Shown here: one piece after another, positions 3-25,195 of the stretch
Position numbering within the stretch: position 1 is the first letter of the stretch
Layout of the letters: the number at the start of each line of letters is the position of its first letter
NCBI GenBank assembly: GCA_051439505.1
Contig: JBFRWI010000129.1
Location: 1 to 25,599 of the forward strand
DNA length: 25,599 nt
Reading direction: 5' to 3'
Source: Hormoscilla sp.
GTDB lineage: Bacteria; Cyanobacteriota; Cyanobacteriia; Cyanobacteriales; Desertifilaceae
Position numbers and translations under genes: made by a program
Notes under the pieces: generated by a model
Databases searched by the model: none
What the model was told of the DNA's origin: nothing
Seen by the model: only the letters and a program-made list of their open reading frames with translations

Positions 3-665
3 GTATCCAATGAAGGACTGATCCTGGACTACAGGGTAACGGGAAGTGCCACCCGGGACGCCGACTACAGTCTCAGTGCCGGGGCGGGAGTCACGAACAT
101 CACCGGAAACCAAATCACCTTGGCAGAAGGAAGCACAACGGCCACAGTCAACCTGATACCCATCACCGATGCCATAACCGACCCGGAAGAAACAGTGCGA
201 CTGGCCATAACAGGGAGTCCCCGCTACCAAGTAGGCAGCAACAATAGCGCCACCCTGAGCATAACCGACAGCGAAGGGGGAATCGAACCGCCACCGCCAC
301 CGCCATCCGATGATATTAATCTGGACATAGACGGAAATGGGGAAACCGACGCTTTAACAGATGGTATTGCCGCAATACGTTATCTCTTCCGGTTCAGTGG
401 CGACGTTTTAATTAACAATGTCATAGGGGAAGGAGCAACTCGTACTACAGCCTTAGAGATTACCAACTATTTAGATTTAGCGCAGGAGACAATGCTAGAT
501 GTAGATGGCAATGGGATGGCAGACGCCCTGACAGATGGCTTAATGATTGTACGTTATCTGTTCGGCTTTGGAGGCAACGCCGTGATTGATGGAGCCATTG
601 GCCCAAATGCCACCCGCTCCACAGCCGATGCAATAATAGCCCACCTGGAATCTTTCGATCTGTAA
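3..665 (+). CDS. C-terminal part of a large surface/secreted protein: Calx-beta-like domain, Pro linker and duplicated dockerin/EF-hand-like repeat (5' end outside window)
   Basis: Frame open from nt 3 (VSNEGLILDYRVTGSATRDADY...DAITDPEETVRLAI...ATLSITDSE, Calx-beta-like); PPPPPP linker; two repeats LD(I/V)DGNGxxDALTDGxxxxRYLF; stop TAA at 663-665. Confidence 0.8.
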   Translation, partial: VSNEGLILDYRVTGSATRDADYSLSAGAGVTNITGNQITLAEGSTTATVNLIPITDAITDPEETVRLAITGSPRYQVGSNNSATLSITDSEGGIEPPPPPPSDDINLDIDGNGETDALTDGIAAIRYLFRFSGDVLINNVIGEGATRTTALEITNYLDLAQETMLDVDGNGMADALTDGLMIVRYLFGFGGNAVIDGAIGPNATRSTADAIIAHLESFDL

Positions 666-727
666 ATTGCTCGTTCCCGGGCTCTGCCTGGGAACGCACA
701 GCAGAGGCTCTGCCTCCAGGAATGATC

Positions 728-5466: not shown

Positions 5467-5500
5467 AGAAGGCAGGATCTTAATTTCTGCTGCCCTAACC

Positions 5501-6020
5501 GCGATCGCCCTTCACAAAAGTTGACATCGGGCCTACCCGATACTTTCGTTCCATACTTCGATCGCCCCATGCAACGTCAGGCCCAATACATGCGATCAGT
5601 CATCAACCACCGGGGCACGGCGTGACCGAATTTTCGGGTAAAGCAGTTAATTTGCCGATGCCGTGCCCCTACCATATCCGTTCGTTCCATACATGCGATC
5701 GCCCCATGCAACGTCATGCCCAATACATGCGATCGCCCCATAAACTGTCACCCCTTGTAGGGGCACGGCATCAACAGATTCTCGGTTCAGATGTAAAATG
5801 TAACAAGCGCCGTGCCCCGGCGCAACCCGATCGCCCCATACATGCGATCGCCCCATGCAACGTCATGCCCAATACATGCGATCGCCCCATAAACTGTCAC
5901 ACCTTGTAGGGGCACGGCATCAACAGATTCTCGGTTCAGATGTAAAATGTAACAAGCGCCGTGCCCCGGGGCGATCGCCTTTCACCAAAGTTTCCATAGG
6001 GCCAAATGCCAGATATCTCT
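5501..6020. repeat. Composite REP/HIP1 mosaic (BIME-like) with a 149-bp-period tandem duplication
   Basis: GGGGCACGGC...GCCGTGCCCC doublets; ATACATGCGATCGCCCCAT units; near-identical 134-bp copies at 5687-5820 and 5836-5969. Confidence 0.9.
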
Positions 6021-6044: not shown

Positions 6045-6122
6045 CTGAAGATAAACATCGGGGAGTTTTTCTCTTAGCATCAAATGCGATCGGGACATTT
6101 AGTAATATTTCGAGCCAGTTGC
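6045..6122. repeat. 78-bp direct repeat, copy A
   Basis: First 44 bp identical to 7038-7081; similarity continues to 7115. Confidence 0.9.
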
Positions 6123-7037: not shown

Positions 7038-7115
7038 CTGAAGATAAACATCGGGGAGTTTTTCTCTTAGCATCAAATGCGGTCTGGACATTTCTTAATA
7101 TTTCAATGAAGTTGC
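7038..7115. repeat. 78-bp direct repeat, copy B
   Basis: Matches 6045-6122 (period 993 bp). Confidence 0.9.
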
Positions 7116-19254: not shown

Positions 19255-22140
19255 ATGAGCGAAAATAAAAGTTACAAGGATACTGTCAACCTGCCCAAGA
19301 CAAGCTTTGATATGCGGGCCAATGCAACGAAGAGAGAGCCGGAGTTGCAAAAGTTTTGGGCGGAAAACCAGATTTACGAAGAACAGGCCCGGCGATCGCC
19401 TGAGTCGGACAGGTTCGTGTTGCACGATGGACCTCCCTATGCTAACGGTTCTTTGCATATGGGTCACGCTCTGAATAAAATCCTCAAGGATATTATTAAT
19501 AAGTACCAATTGCTGCAAGGGCGATCGGTGCGCTATGTTCCAGGTTGGGATTGCCATGGGTTGCCGATCGAGCTGAAGGTTCTACAGAAGATGTCTTCTT
19601 CAGAGCGACAGTCTTTGACTCCGTTAAAACTGCGGCAAAAGGCCCGGGAGTTTGCTCTCAAAGCGGTAGAGGAACAGCGTATTGGTTTCCAGCGCTATGG
19701 GGTTTGGGGTGACTGGACAGATCCTTATTTAACCCTGAAACCGGAGTATGAAGCGGCTCAAATTGCTGTATTTGGTGAAATGGCCCTGAAGGGCTATATC
19801 TATCGCGGTTTGAAGTCGGTTCACTGGAGTCCCAGTTCGCGAACGGCTCTGGCGGAGGCGGAATTGGAGTATCCTGAAGGTCATACTTCTGATAGCATTT
19901 ATGCGGCTTTCAAGCTGACGGCGCTTAACTCAAAGGCGGAACTGGAACCTTTTTTGTCGGAACTATGGGTGGCAATTTGGACGACGACTCCTTGGACAAT
20001 TCCGGCGAATTTGGCGGTGGCTGTGAATCCTGAGTTGACTTATGCTGTGGTCCAGTATAAAGTTGAATCGACAGCACAGAAATATTTGTTGGTAGCAGCA
20101 GAGGCGATCGGGCGCTTGTCGGCAACCCTGGGAACGGAGTTGCCGATTTTGGCAAAGGTAAAGGGCTCTGATTTGGAGTATTGTAAGTATCAGCATCCTT
20201 TATTCGATCGGGAAAGTCCCATAGTTCTGGGAGGAGATTACATTACCACAGAATCGGGGACGGGTTTGGTTCATACGGCTCCGGGTCACGGTCAAGAAGA
20301 TTTTATCGTGGGTCAGCGCTATAATCTAGCTGTCCTGTCTCCCGTGGATGAGAAGGGGAATTTTACTGATGAGGCGGGTCGGTTTGCTGGTTTGAATGTT
20401 TTGGGTGATGCTAATAAGGCGATAATTGAGGCGCTGCAAGAGGCGAATGCTTTGCTGAAGGAAGAACCTTACGTTCACAAGTATCCTTATGATTGGCGGA
20501 CGAAAAAGCCGACGATTTTCCGGGCGACGGAACAGTGGTTCGCTTCGGTGGATAAGTTCCGGGATGAGGCGATGCAGGCGATCGCTTCAGTAAAATGGAT
20601 TCCCGCTCAGGGGGAAAACCGGATTACTGCTATGGTGAAGGGGCGATCGGATTGGTGTATTTCTCGCCAACGTAGCTGGGGTGTTCCCATCCCGGTGTTT
20701 TATGATGAGGAAACGGGAGAACCCCTGCTGACGAAAGAGTCGATCGCCCAGGTGCAGGCAATTATTGCCCAAAAGGGTTCGGATGCTTGGTGGGAGTTGT
20801 CTGTAGAAGAATTGTTACCCGAGTCCTATCGCAACAATGGCAAAACCTACCGCAAGGGGACGGATACGATGGATGTCTGGTTTGACTCGGGTTCCTCTTG
20901 GGCGGGGGTGGCCCAAACTCGCCCAGAATTGTCCTATCCTGTGGATATGTATCTGGAAGGGTCGGACCAACATCGGGGTTGGTTTCAGTCCAGTTTGCTC
21001 ACCAGTGTAGCGAATAATGGCATGGCTCCTTACAAAAAGGTGTTGACTCACGGTTTTGTGCTGGATGAGAACGGACGCAAGATGAGTAAGTCCCTGGGCA
21101 ATGTGGTGGATCCGGCAAGCATCATTGAGGGGGGTAAGAATAAAAAAACTGAACCTGCTTATGGGGCGGATGTGCTGCGCCTGTGGGTGTCTTCGGTGGA
21201 TTATTCTTCGGATGTGCTAATTGGTAAGAATATTATCAAGCAGCTGGGGGATGTCTATCGCAAGATTAGAAATACGGCCCGGTTCTTGCTGGGTAATTTG
21301 CACGATTTTGACCCGGAAAAAGATGCGATCGCCTACTCGGACTTGCCAGAACTAGACAAGTATATGCTGCATCGGATCTCTGAGGTGTTTGAGGATGTGA
21401 CAGACGCTTTTACTCATTATCAGTTCTTCCGATTTTTCCAAACGGTGCAGAATTTCTGCGTGGTAGACTTGTCGAACTTCTATCTAGATATTGCCAAGGA
21501 CAGACTTTACATTAGTGCGCCTGGGGCTTTTCGCCGTCGCAGCTGTCAGACTGTGCTGGCAGTGGCCCTGGAAAATCTCGCTCGGGCGATCGCGCCAGTG
21601 CTGTGCCACATGGCGGAGGATATCTGGCAAAATATCCCCTATGCTACAGCTTACAAATCTGTATTTGCATCGGGTTGGATCGAGCTAAACCCCCAATGGC
21701 AAAACCCCGAACTGGCAGTATCTTGGCAACAGTTGCGAGAACTGCGCGCTGAAGTCAATAAGGTGCTAGAACAGGCCAGAACTGATAAGGCGATCGGTTC
21801 TTCTCTGGAAGCGAAGGTGTTACTCTACGTTGGGGATGTCAACTTGCGGCAAAAACTAGCATCTATGCTTCCCTCTCAGGGGATGTTGAATGGAGTGGAT
21901 GAGTTGCGCTACCTGTTTATTACTTCGGGCGTGGAACTGCTAGAGGATCCAGCAGTTTTTAGTGAGGCAGGGTTGCAGCATAGCTTGCAGTCGGAAATTT
22001 TGGGTGTAAGCGTGGGTGTGGTTAAGGCCGATGGCGAAAAGTGCGATCGCTGCTGGAACTACTCGACCCATGTTGGGGAAGATCCCGAACATCCGATTAT
22101 ATGCGATCGTTGTGTTGCGGCCCTGGCAGGGGAGTTCTAA
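19255..22140 (+). CDS. ileS: Isoleucine--tRNA ligase
   Basis: HDGPPYANGSLHMGH, KMSKS, GSDQHRGWF and C-terminal Zn finger CDRCW...CDRC. Confidence 0.99.
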   Translation: MSENKSYKDTVNLPKTSFDMRANATKREPELQKFWAENQIYEEQARRSPESDRFVLHDGPPYANGSLHMGHALNKILKDIINKYQLLQGRSVRYVPGWDCHGLPIELKVLQKMSSSERQSLTPLKLRQKAREFALKAVEEQRIGFQRYGVWGDWTDPYLTLKPEYEAAQIAVFGEMALKGYIYRGLKSVHWSPSSRTALAEAELEYPEGHTSDSIYAAFKLTALNSKAELEPFLSELWVAIWTTTPWTIPANLAVAVNPELTYAVVQYKVESTAQKYLLVAAEAIGRLSATLGTELPILAKVKGSDLEYCKYQHPLFDRESPIVLGGDYITTESGTGLVHTAPGHGQEDFIVGQRYNLAVLSPVDEKGNFTDEAGRFAGLNVLGDANKAIIEALQEANALLKEEPYVHKYPYDWRTKKPTIFRATEQWFASVDKFRDEAMQAIASVKWIPAQGENRITAMVKGRSDWCISRQRSWGVPIPVFYDEETGEPLLTKESIAQVQAIIAQKGSDAWWELSVEELLPESYRNNGKTYRKGTDTMDVWFDSGSSWAGVAQTRPELSYPVDMYLEGSDQHRGWFQSSLLTSVANNGMAPYKKVLTHGFVLDENGRKMSKSLGNVVDPASIIEGGKNKKTEPAYGADVLRLWVSSVDYSSDVLIGKNIIKQLGDVYRKIRNTARFLLGNLHDFDPEKDAIAYSDLPELDKYMLHRISEVFEDVTDAFTHYQFFRFFQTVQNFCVVDLSNFYLDIAKDRLYISAPGAFRRRSCQTVLAVALENLARAIAPVLCHMAEDIWQNIPYATAYKSVFASGWIELNPQWQNPELAVSWQQLRELRAEVNKVLEQARTDKAIGSSLEAKVLLYVGDVNLRQKLASMLPSQGMLNGVDELRYLFITSGVELLEDPAVFSEAGLQHSLQSEILGVSVGVVKADGEKCDRCWNYSTHVGEDPEHPIICDRCVAALAGEF

Positions 22141-22143
22141 ATT

Positions 22144-22180
22144 TGTCGCTTCAAAACTGTCGCTTCAAAACTGTCGCTTC
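22144..22180. repeat. 14-bp tandem repeat, about 2.6 copies, right after the ileS stop
   Basis: TGTCGCTTCAAAAC at 22144 and 22158, partial at 22172. Confidence 0.8.
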
Positions 22181-22200
22181 GTTGTGAGGGTTTGGCTGTC

Positions 22201-22220
22201 TTGGGGGGTGTAACCCCCCA
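22201..22220. terminator. GC hairpin downstream of ileS (possible terminator or REP)
   Basis: TGGGGGGTGTAACCCCCCA; no clear U tract. Confidence 0.35.
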
Positions 22221-22320
22221 GTCTATTGCCCCACAGTATCTTGCAAACCCTTCCAAGGACAACTTATGTTAAAGTGAGTTGGACAGACATCAAACGCTAT
22301 ATGCCTTAAAGGAGGGAAGT

Positions 22321-22803
22321 ATGAGCAGCGAAAAAAAACTACAGCCGAATGTATATACCGAGCGGAAATATAACTCCACGGTAGAGGTTGATTTTGATAT
22401 GGGGGTGAAGTACAGTGCCGCGTTATTGGCGATCGCCGGAGCAGATGGCGAGCTGGCGGAGGGTGAATTACAGTGGTATATTGACGAAGTAACTTTGATG
22501 GGAGCAAGCCTTGAGTACATTGACGCGATCCGTAACATCGACTGGAAGAGTGTTAACATTGAGGAGGTATTGAGCGAGGTTAAATTTGATTGTCCCCTCA
22601 ATATACGGCGAAGCCTGTTATACCAAGCAATCAAGATGAGTAGGGCTGATGGAGTATACCACGAACAGGAAAAAGCGGCTGTTGCGCGAGCTGCCCAGAT
22701 TTTAGAGGTGTCCCAGAGCGTGGTCCAAAGCCTCGAGTCCGTGGCGGAAATGGAAGATGCCTCGGAACGACTGCTGAGGCTCATACTTAGCAGCGAAGTT
22801 TAG
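22321..22803 (+). CDS. TerB family (tellurite-resistance-like) protein
   Basis: Two TerB motifs AIAGADGELAEGE and MSRADGVYHEQEK; RBS AAGGAGG before ATG 22321. Confidence 0.8.
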   Translation: MSSEKKLQPNVYTERKYNSTVEVDFDMGVKYSAALLAIAGADGELAEGELQWYIDEVTLMGASLEYIDAIRNIDWKSVNIEEVLSEVKFDCPLNIRRSLLYQAIKMSRADGVYHEQEKAAVARAAQILEVSQSVVQSLESVAEMEDASERLLRLILSSEV

Positions 22804-23084
22804 GGTTGCACCTGTAATGATGCTCCGTTCAACCTCTTTGAGAACAGTTCCAACTCGGCCTGTGCCATTGACAGATCGGAGCGTTCATCGGCTACCAACT
22901 TAAGCCGGGACAGCCCTAGATGGCCAGGCTTTCAGCCCACAGGAATTGCAGCTGTTCGCTAGGCCGAATTTGTCCCGCTTTACGTTGGTGGTCCGTTCTG
23001 ATGGCAACCAACTCCAACCTCGAAGAGTTAAAGATTGCTGGCCAATAATAGGCGAAAGTAAAAAACCTTAATAAGGAATAAGTA

Positions 23085-23765
23085 GTGATTTCGATACCCT
23101 CACAATACAAACCCAGAGTATTAGATCTAAAAACCCAAGAAGGTTGGCTTAATTGGTCCTTAGATTTTTTTACGAATCCAAATATCATTCAATCACCTTA
23201 TCTGCATATAACAATTCAACTGGATGTGACCAATGCTTATCAAAGTTATCAAAAAAATCTCGTTGAAGGAGCAACTTTTTTTAGTTTTTTAACTTGGCAT
23301 TTAGTGCAAACGTTAAAAAAACATTTTTGCTTTAATCTAAGATTAATTGAGAATCAATGGGTTATTCTTGACAATCCTCCTATAGTTATTCCTGTTGCGG
23401 TAGGAGGAGTAGAACGGTTTTGCGAAATTACTTTAGAAAATGTTAGCGAAATAAGTTACGAAAAATTTATTGGCCAATATCGTCAAAAATTAGATGGAAT
23501 TAGACAAAAAAAAGGTAGAAGAGTAGGAGCGGAAACTTTTTTGTTTTCCTGTGTATTCGGAAATTTACCTAATTTACAATTCACCGGATTCACTCTGATT
23601 TGGCAACATACGGAAATAACAGGTCAACCTTTTTTCTATTTTGGCAAACGCTATTGGCAAAATAATCAACTTTTGATTCCTTTTGTAGCTAGATTACATC
23701 ACGCTTGTACCGATCCTTTTGTCTTGGATTTATTACTGCAAGATTTTCAACAACGATTTGTCTAA
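23085..23765 (+). CDS. CatA-like O-acetyltransferase (chloramphenicol acetyltransferase fold)
   Basis: ITIQLDVT, FNLRL, NLPNLQFTGF, PFFYFGK and LLIPFVARLHHACTDP (HHxxxD catalytic motif); AAGGA RBS before GTG; AT-rich. Confidence 0.8.
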   Translation: MISIPSQYKPRVLDLKTQEGWLNWSLDFFTNPNIIQSPYLHITIQLDVTNAYQSYQKNLVEGATFFSFLTWHLVQTLKKHFCFNLRLIENQWVILDNPPIVIPVAVGGVERFCEITLENVSEISYEKFIGQYRQKLDGIRQKKGRRVGAETFLFSCVFGNLPNLQFTGFTLIWQHTEITGQPFFYFGKRYWQNNQLLIPFVARLHHACTDPFVLDLLLQDFQQRFV

Positions 23766-23787
23766 GAGAAAATTGTTGGGTACAACA

Positions 23788-23940
23788 GTCCGGACAGGAA
23801 CGAGATATATTTAGCAGTAGATGAAAAACCTTATGATGGAATATGAGCGCGAACCCATGGGCGAACTAATGCTAGAAAACCACCGCTTAAATTTAGTATT
23901 TTTCAACAAATCCGAGGAGATAATTGTCCAATGGATACAG
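23788..23940 (+). pseudogene. xisH: XisH family C-terminal remnant, frameshifted
   Basis: PDRNEIYLAVDEKPYDGI, frameshift, then REPMGELMLENHRLNLVFFNKSEEIIVQWI overlapping the xisI start. Confidence 0.7.
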
Positions 23941-24273
23941 AGAGTAAATATCAACAAATAATTGAGAAAATAATCGGAGATTATGCTCAATTGCGCTATT
24001 CCCATGGGCAAGTAGAAAGACAAACGGTTTTCGACCGAGAACAGAACCAATATTTATTAATGTTCCTGGGAAAAGAGGGTAATAAAATGGTTCATGGTTG
24101 CATAAATCATCTGGAAATTAGAGGCGATAAAATTTGGATTCATCGCGACGGAAGTGCAGATGGTATGGCAGGAGAATTGTTGGCAGCAGGAGTGCCAAAA
24201 GCCAAAATAAAAAATTGTTTTAGGATTTTATCTCCCAGAAACACGCGAGTTAACAGATTTTGCTGTTTGTTAA
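23931..24273 (+). pseudogene. xisI: XisI family protein with a 3' frameshift
   Basis: HGCINHLEIRGDKIWIHRDG...ELLAAGVPK; canonical tail KIVLGFYLPETRELTDFAVC* lies in another frame after the A-rich run near 24204-24214. Confidence 0.82.
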
Positions 24274-24351
24274 TTTGAGGTGCGATCGCCTCTTTTCCCA
24301 TGCGATCGCCTTAATGATTTCAGTCTGTTTTCAACCAACCGACCGAAACTT

Positions 24352-24397
24352 GTGGGCGTGGTCAAGCCGATGGCGAAAAGTGCGATCTCCCCATGTC
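24352..24397 (+). pseudogene. Displaced fragment of the ileS near-3' region
   Basis: GTGGGCGTGGTCAAG-CCGATGGCGAAAAGTGCGATC versus ileS 22012-22048 GTGGGTGTGGTTAAGGCCGATGGCGAAAAGTGCGATC; CCCATGT also follows in both. Confidence 0.8.
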
Positions 24398-24402
24398 CGG
24401 CC

Positions 24403-24444
24403 AATGATAGCTTCATAATTTTCATTGACTATACCAAGCATCAT
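24403..24444 (-). pseudogene. 5' stub of a clan AA aspartic protease gene
   Basis: MMLGIVNENYEAII starting at the ATGA overlap with the upstream gene; similarity ends at the ileS fragment. Confidence 0.55.
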
Positions 24445-24716
24445 AGGACTTTTTTCAGACTCCGGGATCCAAAACGATAAACAGCAGAATGTCCAATCCG
24501 AATCACCCAAGGTTGAGCATCGGGATATCGCTCGTAAAGTCGCTCTGTTGCTGTTATAGTATTTTCGGCAAGTTCAAACGCTCCCGTCTCTATGTCGATC
24601 GCGACTATTTTGCCGTGATTTCCTGCTTCTACTTGCGATCGCACCTCGGTTTCGTAGATGCGATCGCCACGTCGAGCAAATTCTTCTTTGCTGTATCGGG
24701 GTTGTCGGACTGTCAT
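24441..24716 (-). CDS. DUF5678-like small protein
   Basis: RYSKEEFARRGDRIYETEVRSQVEAGNHGKIVAIDIETGAFE...PDAQPWVIRIG; RBS AAGAGG; extended -10 TGGTAAAAT at 24747-24755. Confidence 0.8.
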   Translation of the reverse strand: MTVRQPRYSKEEFARRGDRIYETEVRSQVEAGNHGKIVAIDIETGAFELAENTITATERLYERYPDAQPWVIRIGHSAVYRFGSRSLKKVL

Positions 24717-24883: not shown

Positions 24884-25195
24884 AGAGATATCTGGCCAAA
24901 TGCCCCAGGTAAACTTTTGTGAAGGGCGATCGCACATAAGGAGATCGGGTTGCGCCGGGGCACGGCGGTTGTTACATTCTACATCTGAACCGAGAATCTG
25001 TTGATGCCGTGCCCCTACAGGGTGTGACGGTTTATGGGGCGATCGCATGTATTGGGCATGACCTTGCATGGGGCGATCGCATGTATGGAACGAACGTATC
25101 GGGTAGGGGCACAGCGTCAGCGTATCGGCAAATTAACTGCTTTGCCCGAAAATTAGGTCACGCCGTGCCCCGGTGGTTGATGACCGATCGCATGT
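24884..25195. repeat. Inverted copy of the composite REP/HIP1 mosaic at 5501-6020, with a single unit
   Basis: Reverse complement matches 5588-5832 and 5971-6020, including spacer ATCAACAGATTCTCGGTTCAGATGTA and end GCCAGATATCTCT. Confidence 0.9.

What the first reader, a model, noticed from the sequence alone, without database searches (positions are those of the whole stretch)
22012..24397. Island behind ileS closed by a displaced, synonymously diverged ileS fragment
Seen: ileS 22012-22048 (VGVVKADGEKCD) recurs at 24352-24387 with two third-position changes (GGT>GGC, GTT>GTC) and a 1-nt deletion. The match breaks at the HIP1 site and resumes briefly at CCCATGT. Between the copies lie TerB-like, CatA-like and xisH/xisI genes. 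Inference: the same process as at the left end of the window, here acting on an essential gene whose C-terminal Zn-finger coding segment may have been replaced.
Basis: partly seen in the sequence, partly recalled or inferred. Interest (0 to 1): 0.72.

Follow-up and report, generated by a model that had tools for sequence, protein, structure and literature searches.

The report
Recombination scar behind cyanobacterial ileS gene
A 36-base leftover copy of part of an essential tRNA-synthetase gene lies 2.2 kb behind the gene and matches the version found in sister species; it is likely the scar of two versions of this chromosome region being joined out of register without an integrase, a known way for bacteria to gain genes, and there is no clear sign that the enzyme's zinc finger was swapped.

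Summary
The repeat is real: ileS 22012-22048 recurs once in the genome at 24352-24387 (34/37), and an unbroken contig bridges it. Three parts of the reading fail or are unsupported. CCCATGT belongs to another repeat. The stretch is not one island: xisI sits at this site in 2 of 4 congeners without any fragment, and TerB/CAT truncated xisH separately. No zinc-finger swap is shown (p=0.16); a sister lineage shares this genome's ileS tract but has the ordinary flank, so the fragment is more likely incoming DNA than the displaced old end. The footprint is general: 19 of 2211 genes in this genome, 6 of 88 other cyanobacterial ileS loci, no integrase, no fixed crossover point. It resembles the published 'insertion with long target duplication' (PMC2853133); this scan already noted it in this genome and in other phyla. 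An ileS/HIP1 hotspot is possible (6/81 vs 1/307 neighbours) but a matched valS control was not significant (2/34 vs 0/36).

The parts
19255..22140 (+). ileS, intact isoleucyl-tRNA synthetase gene (961 aa), the anchor gene
   Evidence: 92.4-93.5% identical to four congeners
21956..22024 (+). Tract with two 6-nt in-frame insertions and 7-8 substitutions against the congeners; shared with a sister lineage seen in runs X5 and X7
22012..22048 (+). Repeat copy 1 inside ileS (GGT/GTT allele)
22043..22050 (.). HIP1 octamer spelled by the Cys-Asp-Arg codons of the zinc finger; the match between the copies ends here
22033..22116 (+). zf-FPG_IleRS coding segment (aa 927-954); 3-4 differences in 92 nt (22049-22140) from G001, G002, G004, 16 from G003
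22321..22803 (+). TerB-domain gene; paralogs at 60-77% aa elsewhere in the genome; not behind ileS in 4 of 4 congeners
23085..23765 (+). CAT-fold acyltransferase-like gene, 33% G+C (genome 48%), far below the CatA cut-off (42 vs 270 bits); single copy
23808..23961 (+). 3' remnant of xisH with a 1-nt insertion; 5' part lost where the TerB/CAT block begins
   Evidence: full XisH in the congener at this site
23931..24278 (+). xisI with a 7-nt insertion near 24202 that shifts its last codons; 93-95% identical to xisI at the same site in G001 and G002
24302..24309 (.). HIP1 site at which the match to G001 and G002 ends
24312..24343 (.). Half of a genome-wide small repeat (core motif 64 copies), directly left of the fragment
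24345..24387 (+). ileS fragment: congener allele at 3 of 3 diagnostic substitutions, lacks the second 6-nt insertion, carries a 5-nt and a 1-nt deletion and no substitution against G001, G003, G004
24382..24403 (.). Piece of a HIP1-linked repeat that replaces the rest of ileS (source of CCCATGT)
24403..24716 (-). 91-aa gene plus the first codons of its truncated 124-aa partner; this module lies elsewhere in the congeners

Best explanation
The 36-mer is a piece of the sister-clade version of ileS that likely arrived with incoming DNA and was joined out of register behind this genome's own, unchanged ileS by ordinary recombination without an integrase. Inferred steps: (1) DNA from a congener-type haplotype (ileS end, small repeat, xisH-xisI in that order, as in G001/G002) was taken up, probably by natural transformation; (2) it integrated by one homologous crossover just behind ileS after circularising, or by an offset illegitimate joint, which places the donor's ileS piece downstream of xisI; (3) later deletions at HIP1 and small repeats trimmed the piece to 43 nt and attached an unrelated module on its right; (4) TerB and CAT were added in a separate event that removed the 5' part of xisH. 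Shown: the repeat, its allele, the patchwork, the absence of an integrase and of a fixed crossover point. Not shown: direction of transfer, the circle, the order of events.
For: Fragment equals the congener allele (36/37 columns in 3 of 4 congeners, 35/37 in the fourth, 34/37 for the genome's own gene). This genome's tract is its lineage's own: contigs in runs X5 and X7 cover 21709-22093 with 7 differences and no gap, against 16-24 differences plus 12-13 gap columns for the congeners, and an X5 contig leaves the window at 22152 into the congener-type repeat flank (X5 and X7 may be one campaign). Order in G001/G002 is ileS, repeat, xisH-xisI; here the ileS piece follows xisI. Breakpoints lie at HIP1 or repeat halves. 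No integrase between the copies nor among the ORFs between the copies at the other 6 ileS cases (six of those ORFs scanned). Genome-wide asymmetry: of 2211 ORFs of 300 aa or more, last-250-nt copies lie downstream in 19 and upstream in 2, first-250-nt copies upstream in 10 and downstream in 2, opposite strand 0. ComEC and DprA genes are present in 5 of 5 genomes of the genus. In E. coli conjugation 56 of 60 recombinants with one-sided homology were partial duplications from a single crossover of a trimmed circle (PMC3240628, passages).
Against: xisI is only 93-95% identical to the congener copies, no closer than the ileS body, so it does not look recently imported with the fragment. The rest of the donor ileS end, expected right of the fragment, is absent and must be explained by a later deletion. 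The diagnostic signal is 3 substitutions and one indel in about 43 nt. The X5/X7 difference table is truncated, so their bases at 22017 and 22023 are inferred from not being listed. At 10 loci of this genome compared with congeners, 32 of 52 differing sites have a base seen only in the fragment's absence from congeners (gene base found, fragment base not), as plain decay of an old copy would give. ComEC and DprA also occur in 10 of 14 control genomes, so their presence is weak evidence.
Confidence: 0.5

Rival explanations
1. Displaced resident end: the ancestor had the GGC/GTC allele; incoming DNA carrying a new ileS 3' tract (from 21956 or earlier to the stop) plus cargo recombined in the gene body and re-joined upstream of the old end, which survives as the fragment. 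The replaced part would be longer than the zinc finger.
For: Fragment is congener-like and the short form without insertions is also seen in outgroups. At other genes the fragment plus its flank matches the post-gene sequence of congeners (C220 gene 2036: scores 49 and 59 vs 12; recJ-like gene 1788: 32-41 vs 13-18). In 11 of 26 loci with the ParA-like neighbour it ends 57-189 nt behind ileS, while L112 and L070 have cargo and a fragment 84 and 66 nt before it. G003 has a diverged last 60 nt of ileS (16 differences in 92 nt), so ileS ends are exchanged in this genus.
Against: The genome's tract is shared with a sister lineage that has the ordinary flank and is also closer upstream (17 vs 19-29 differences in 344 nt), so an extra earlier replacement is needed. 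The DNA right of the fragment is not the ileS neighbour in any of 4 congeners.
Confidence: 0.27
2. Tandem duplication inside one chromosome followed by insertion, deletion and drift; no second haplotype.
For: Five of the 19 genome-wide cases are short tandem copies without cargo and two share 300 nt or more of flank. Gene-only versus fragment-only sites are 32 to 10 at ten loci, near the ratio expected from decay.
Against: At ileS all three substitutions and the insertion fall on the gene side and none on the supposedly neutral fragment. Over 25 cases 55 of 103 differences are synonymous, above the roughly 41% that I estimate for duplication plus decay (p=0.007).
Confidence: 0.1
3. Site-specific integration into the ileS 3' end by an integrase acting in trans, or at HIP1 by a dedicated recombination route, with later decay of the island.
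For: ileS loci carry fragments more often than neighbouring genes (6/81 vs 1/307, p=4e-4). Inner edges fall at HIP1 in L112, L043 and, loosely, L057 and the 17-nt piece in L076. HIP1 has been linked to site-specific recombination (PMC4390886, passages).
Against: Inner edges range from -214 to -39 nt and L038 (-214 to -125) shares no core with L043 or L057. No integrase in any cargo listed. The scar occurs at many unrelated genes. Matched control: ileS 2/34, valS 0/36, not significant.
Confidence: 0.1
4. Chance match or assembly chimera.
For: The match is short and includes a HIP1 site (1 per kb); the genome is a 232-contig assembly.
Against: E=1.7e-5 genome-wide, 2.2 kb from the gene, same strand, congener allele; bridged by a 395-nt contig with no difference; controls gave 0 of 89 on the opposite strand and 0 of 68 upstream.
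Confidence: 0.03

Closest known systems
Insertion with long target duplication (Furuta et al. 2010, PMC2853133: passages and sections 15 and 18 read; Nobusato et al. 2000 not read, cited there)
   Same: Small insert, direct repeat longer than 30 bp and unique in the genome, no mobile-element genes; reported there also in the cyanobacterium Microcystis, mostly in competent species, with repeats often spanning a start or stop codon.
   Different: No restriction-modification genes here; the repeat is internal to the gene end (it stops 92 nt before the stop codon); no clean empty site at this locus; the copies are two alleles rather than near-identical copies.
Single-crossover (Campbell-type) integration of a trimmed, circularised donor, and homology-facilitated illegitimate recombination (PMC3240628 and PMC2884548, passages read)
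   Same: One homologous side plus one illegitimate joint, no dedicated enzyme; partial gene duplications of 109-950 bp were obtained experimentally.
   Different: Classical HFIR gives a deletion, not a duplication; the experimental duplications are longer and untrimmed; no such experiment in cyanobacteria was found in my searches.
Integrase-mediated genomic island with regenerated target and displaced fragment (Islander, PMC4383910, passages read)
   Same: 3' fragment downstream of the gene in the same orientation with cargo between.
   Different: No integrase, protein-coding target, internal fragment, no fixed crossover point across cases.
HIP1-associated recombination in cyanobacteria (PMC4390886 passages; 10.1101/2024.09.10.611283 abstract, introduction and part of methods; PMC13756078 abstract only)
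   Same: Breakpoints at GCGATCGC; homologous HIP1 sites raise integration efficiency in Synechococcus PCC 7002.
   Different: Those reports do not describe gene-end duplications in the parts I read; most scars in this genome have no HIP1 at the inner edge (read by eye).

Membership tests
Insertion with long target duplication | Direct repeat longer than 30 bp, unique in the genome, flanking the insert | tested here: met
   36-37 nt, two places only
Insertion with long target duplication | Insert under 20 kb with no integrase or other mobile-element gene | tested here: met
   2.3 kb; TerB, CAT, xisH remnant, XisI only
[quoted passage not shown]
   4 of 4 congeners have one copy but not the right flank; they are other species and the site is reworked; no conspecific genome was available. 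Met at another gene of this genome (C220 gene 2041 in G001) and for ileS in Nostocales-type loci.
Insertion with long target duplication, as searched by Furuta 2010 | Cargo includes restriction and modification genes | tested here: not met
   so this is not one of their R-M cases, only the same structure
Integrase-mediated genomic island (Islander definition) | Encodes an integrase | tested here: not met
Integrase-mediated genomic island (Islander definition) | Fragment is an end fragment of the target, and the target is a tRNA or tmRNA gene | tested here: not met
   fragment stops 92 nt before the ileS stop codon; target is protein-coding
Integrase-mediated genomic island (Islander definition) | 3' fragment downstream, same orientation | tested here: met
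Integrase-mediated genomic island (Islander definition) | Fixed crossover core shared by independent insertions | tested here: not met
   inner edges at -214, -129, -118, -98, -68, -43, -39
Homology-facilitated illegitimate recombination | Host can take up DNA | tested here: inconclusive
   ComEC and DprA genes present in 5 of 5 genomes; competence itself untested
Homology-facilitated illegitimate recombination | Product is a deletion of resident DNA at the illegitimate joint | tested here: not met
   product here is a partial duplication (definition from PMC3240628)
Single crossover of a circularised donor | Donor order is circularly permuted around the crossover | tested here: met
   congeners: ileS piece then xisH-xisI; here xisI then ileS piece with the congener allele. 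Also compatible with other histories.
Single crossover of a circularised donor | Downstream copy runs on to the gene end and the old flank | tested here: not met
   copy is cut at HIP1 and followed by another repeat; a later deletion must be assumed
Single crossover of a circularised donor | Circular intermediate | not testable with these tools
   no excised or joined form among the joints listed (9 further joints not shown)

The most novel reading that the evidence does not exclude
The 3' end of cyanobacterial ileS is a phylum-wide, integrase-free landing site for accessory genes because the Cys-Asp-Arg codons of its zinc finger spell HIP1 (present in the last 130 nt of 88 of 95 ileS loci), so HIP1-guided strand joining during natural transformation stacks cargo behind the gene and leaves gene-end relics; the roughly 30 outward-facing relics in this one genome would be a fossil record that makes HIP1's long-sought role in gene acquisition testable.
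Probability: 0.2. Interest if true: 0.6.

Novelty: new member of a known kind. Interest (0 to 1): 0.3.

Why it matters
As a single case it is an ordinary recombination scar. Its use is as a marker: outward-facing gene-end relics map where integrase-free gene gain happened, occur at about 1% of long genes in this genome and at about 7% of cyanobacterial ileS loci sampled, and are invisible to island finders that demand an integrase. If the ileS/HIP1 enrichment holds in a larger sample, it gives a direct genomic test of whether HIP1 guides the joints of incoming DNA. The claim that an essential enzyme's zinc finger was swapped is not established.

Tried and rejected
Two exact-pattern scans of metagenome contigs for the ileS region found 0 matches. 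Runs X5 and X7 show little or no cover over TerB, CAT and the fragment; lack of cover proves nothing and was not used as evidence. Runs X9 and X13 added only congener-like pieces. No joint that skips the cargo appeared among the joints listed (lists truncated). A distinct phylogeny for the last 130 nt could not be shown: sliding identities and private-site counts were used instead of a tree, p=0.16. Two values of the 'internal segment' control (L081, L098) were slicing artefacts and were dropped, leaving 0 of 87; 7 of 96 loci were dropped there for under 1 kb of downstream DNA; L117 (score 41) and L048 (39) were not counted as fragments. The valS control did not confirm an ileS hotspot (3 of 39 valS and 6 of 40 ileS loci unusable; one valS end is premature because of an internal stop). 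'Fragment base seen in a congener' (19 of 52 sites) looked like proof of two haplotypes but 10 of these are also expected from later change in the gene, so it was not used as such. The 10 upstream cases include paralog remnants; only 3 have a cargo ORF. Congeners gave no usable orthologous locus for the left-end gene or for C217. Literature searches for ileS as an integration site and for integrase-free gene-end duplication in cyanobacteria (listings only unless stated) returned no paper on this locus; two HFIR papers were not held. PMC3119063 (passages) describes other indel classes and was set aside. No supplements were read; those of PMC2853133 may list the Microcystis cases in detail.
Full report
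Setting. The window is the whole contig C129 of a 6.47-Mb, 232-contig assembly. The four best genome hits for the IleRS C-terminus are Hormoscilla records at 89-91% amino-acid identity, so the organism is likely a filamentous cyanobacterium of that genus. HIP1 occurs once per kb.

Observation. ileS (19255-22140) has a second copy of 22012-22048 at 24352-24387: 34 of 37 columns, two synonymous changes and a 1-nt gap, E=1.7e-5 against the genome and no third copy. Seven more bases match across a 5-nt deletion (24345-24351). A 395-nt contig from run X2 spans 24124-24518 without a difference (possibly the source sample). TerB, CAT and XisI are confirmed by Pfam. xisH is a frameshifted 3' remnant and xisI has a 7-nt insertion. 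The bases after the fragment's HIP1, including CCCATGT, match a different repeat at 18 of 19 nt in three congeners, so they are not ileS.

Which allele. The fragment matches the intact ileS of G001, G003 and G004 at 36 of 37 columns and G002 at 35, better than its own gene. All four carry GGC/GTC and the third diagnostic base, and lack both 6-nt insertions of this genome. All differences fall on the gene side; the fragment has deletions but no substitution. Plain duplication and decay predicts the opposite.

Was the zinc finger replaced? Private substitutions are 13 in 253 nt (21772-22024) and 2 in 116 nt (22025-22140), Fisher p=0.16; the gene differs from congeners fairly evenly along its length. 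Contigs from runs X5 and X7 (two study codes, possibly one campaign) cover 21709-22093 with 7 differences and no gap, where congeners show 16-24 differences and 12-13 gap columns; an X5 contig leaves the window at 22152 into the repeat flank seen in congeners. So this genome's tract is a lineage allele that also exists with the ordinary flank. That makes the fragment more likely foreign DNA of the sister clade than the displaced old end, though the signal is a few sites and the table is truncated. G003 does have a diverged last 60 nt (16 differences in 92 nt).

Is it one island? No. G001 and G002 have xisI (93-95% identical) behind ileS with no fragment; G003 and G004 have neither. The match to G001/G002 stops at the HIP1 site 24302-24309; 24312-24343 is half of a genome-wide repeat; the module from 24403 lies elsewhere in congeners. 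TerB has paralogs elsewhere and CAT is 33% G+C. The sequence after the fragment does not match the post-ileS flank of any of 4 congeners (scores 13-14), and their shared downstream gene is on contig C9 here. The site is a layered patchwork with joints at HIP1 and small repeats.

Generality. Of 89 ileS loci with at least 1 kb downstream (96 examined), 7 including the window have a same-strand fragment scoring 57 or more; controls gave 0 of 89 on the opposite strand, 0 of 68 upstream and 0 of 87 for an internal segment (two artefact rows dropped). Cargo is varied (WD40/KAP NTPase, Uma2, caspase-domain, AAA ATPase, UPF0175) with no integrase; inner edges scatter from -214 to -39. A ParA-like gene ends 57-189 nt behind ileS in 11 of 26 loci that have it, and L112 and L070 show cargo closed by a fragment just before it. 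In this genome, among 2211 ORFs of 300 aa or more, non-coding near-copies of the last 250 nt lie downstream in 19 and upstream in 2; of the first 250 nt upstream in 10 and downstream in 2; of the middle in 2; none on the opposite strand. Fourteen of the 19 have a cargo ORF, 11 of them ending in the anchor's orientation, 8 within 50 nt of the fragment; 5 are short tandem copies. At several, the fragment's flank is a congener's post-gene flank. Differences are 55 of 103 synonymous, above my decay estimate of 41% (p=0.007), but 32 of 52 sites at ten loci look like decay of the fragment, so the set is mixed. The left-end triple (605-674, 1598-1667, 2655-2724) is the same kind of structure; copies 2 and 3 share bases that differ from the gene. 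ileS is richer than neighbouring genes (6/81 vs 1/307, p=4e-4), but a matched test gave ileS 2/34 and valS 0/36, so a hotspot is suggested, not shown.

Mechanism. Best reading (0.5): congener-type DNA entered, likely by natural transformation (ComEC and DprA in 5 of 5 genomes), and was joined out of register behind the resident ileS, by a single crossover of a trimmed circle or an offset illegitimate joint; later HIP1- and repeat-bounded deletions cut the piece to 43 nt and TerB/CAT came separately. Uptake, circle, direction and order are inferred. Rivals: displaced resident end (0.27), duplication and decay (0.1), trans-acting or HIP1 site-specific integration (0.1), artefact (0.03).

Comparison with what is known. 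The structure fits 'insertion with long target duplication' (PMC2853133; passages and sections 15, 18 read), reported in Microcystis among others, without its restriction-modification cargo and without a clean empty site here. It fails the Islander definition (PMC4383910, passages). Partial duplications from one-sided homology were obtained in E. coli (PMC3240628, passages). HIP1 is linked to recombination and transformation (PMC4390886 passages; 10.1101/2024.09.10.611283 first quarter; PMC13756078 abstract). Earlier notes of this scan report the same footprint in this genome and in unrelated prokaryotes; one gave me the lead to the long-target-duplication papers. Gene labels such as thiC, mutS, mutS2, recJ, valS, CAAD and 'aspartyl protease' are recalled from the sequences and come from no call.

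Verdict. Real feature, known kind, interest 0.3; the zinc-finger swap is unproven and the single-island picture is wrong. The remaining prize is the possible HIP1/ileS hotspot (probability 0.2, interest 0.6).

Noticed in passing
window 605-674, 1598-1667, 2655-2724: Three copies of the 3' end of the gene at 3-665, separated by small gene pairs (DUF3368/UPF0175 among them); copies 2 and 3 share an allele that differs from the present gene.
   Followed up: partly
window 6045-6122 and 7038-7115: A second unique 78-nt direct repeat (90%) bracketing a two-gene module; its source gene was not identified.
   Followed up: no
window 23085-23765: Low-G+C CAT-fold gene that keeps an HHxxxD motif (catalytic role recalled), far from the CatA family cut-off; one homolog at 68% nt in G032.
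   Followed up: partly
L032 (G003) last 60 nt of ileS and flank: Diverged ileS end (16 differences in 92 nt) ending in a tandem repeat; looks like a real replacement of the gene's tail in that genome.
   Followed up: partly
ileS of G005-G013 and other relatives: An insertion of roughly 600 nt near the ileS 3' end that the window's genus lacks; probably the CAAD membrane-anchoring domain (recalled, not tested). Run X13 shows a 425-nt insertion at a similar place.
   Followed up: no
L076, 3355-3372 nt behind ileS: A 17-nt ileS piece starting at HIP1, 85 nt before the ParA-like gene, the same position as the fragment in L112; below the score threshold.
   Followed up: partly
G001:C5:597713-598126, G004:C41:45492-45831, G003:C139:13032-13188: Longer displaced copies (157-414 nt) of one gene's 3' or inner part in three congeners, each with different edges.
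   Followed up: no
window 5500-6020 and 24884-25195: Large inverted copies of a composite repeat of 149-nt units rich in HIP1, part of a family with many copies in the genome.
   Followed up: no
window 22141-22180: A 14-nt unit repeated directly after the ileS stop codon, with copy number varying among congeners.
   Followed up: no
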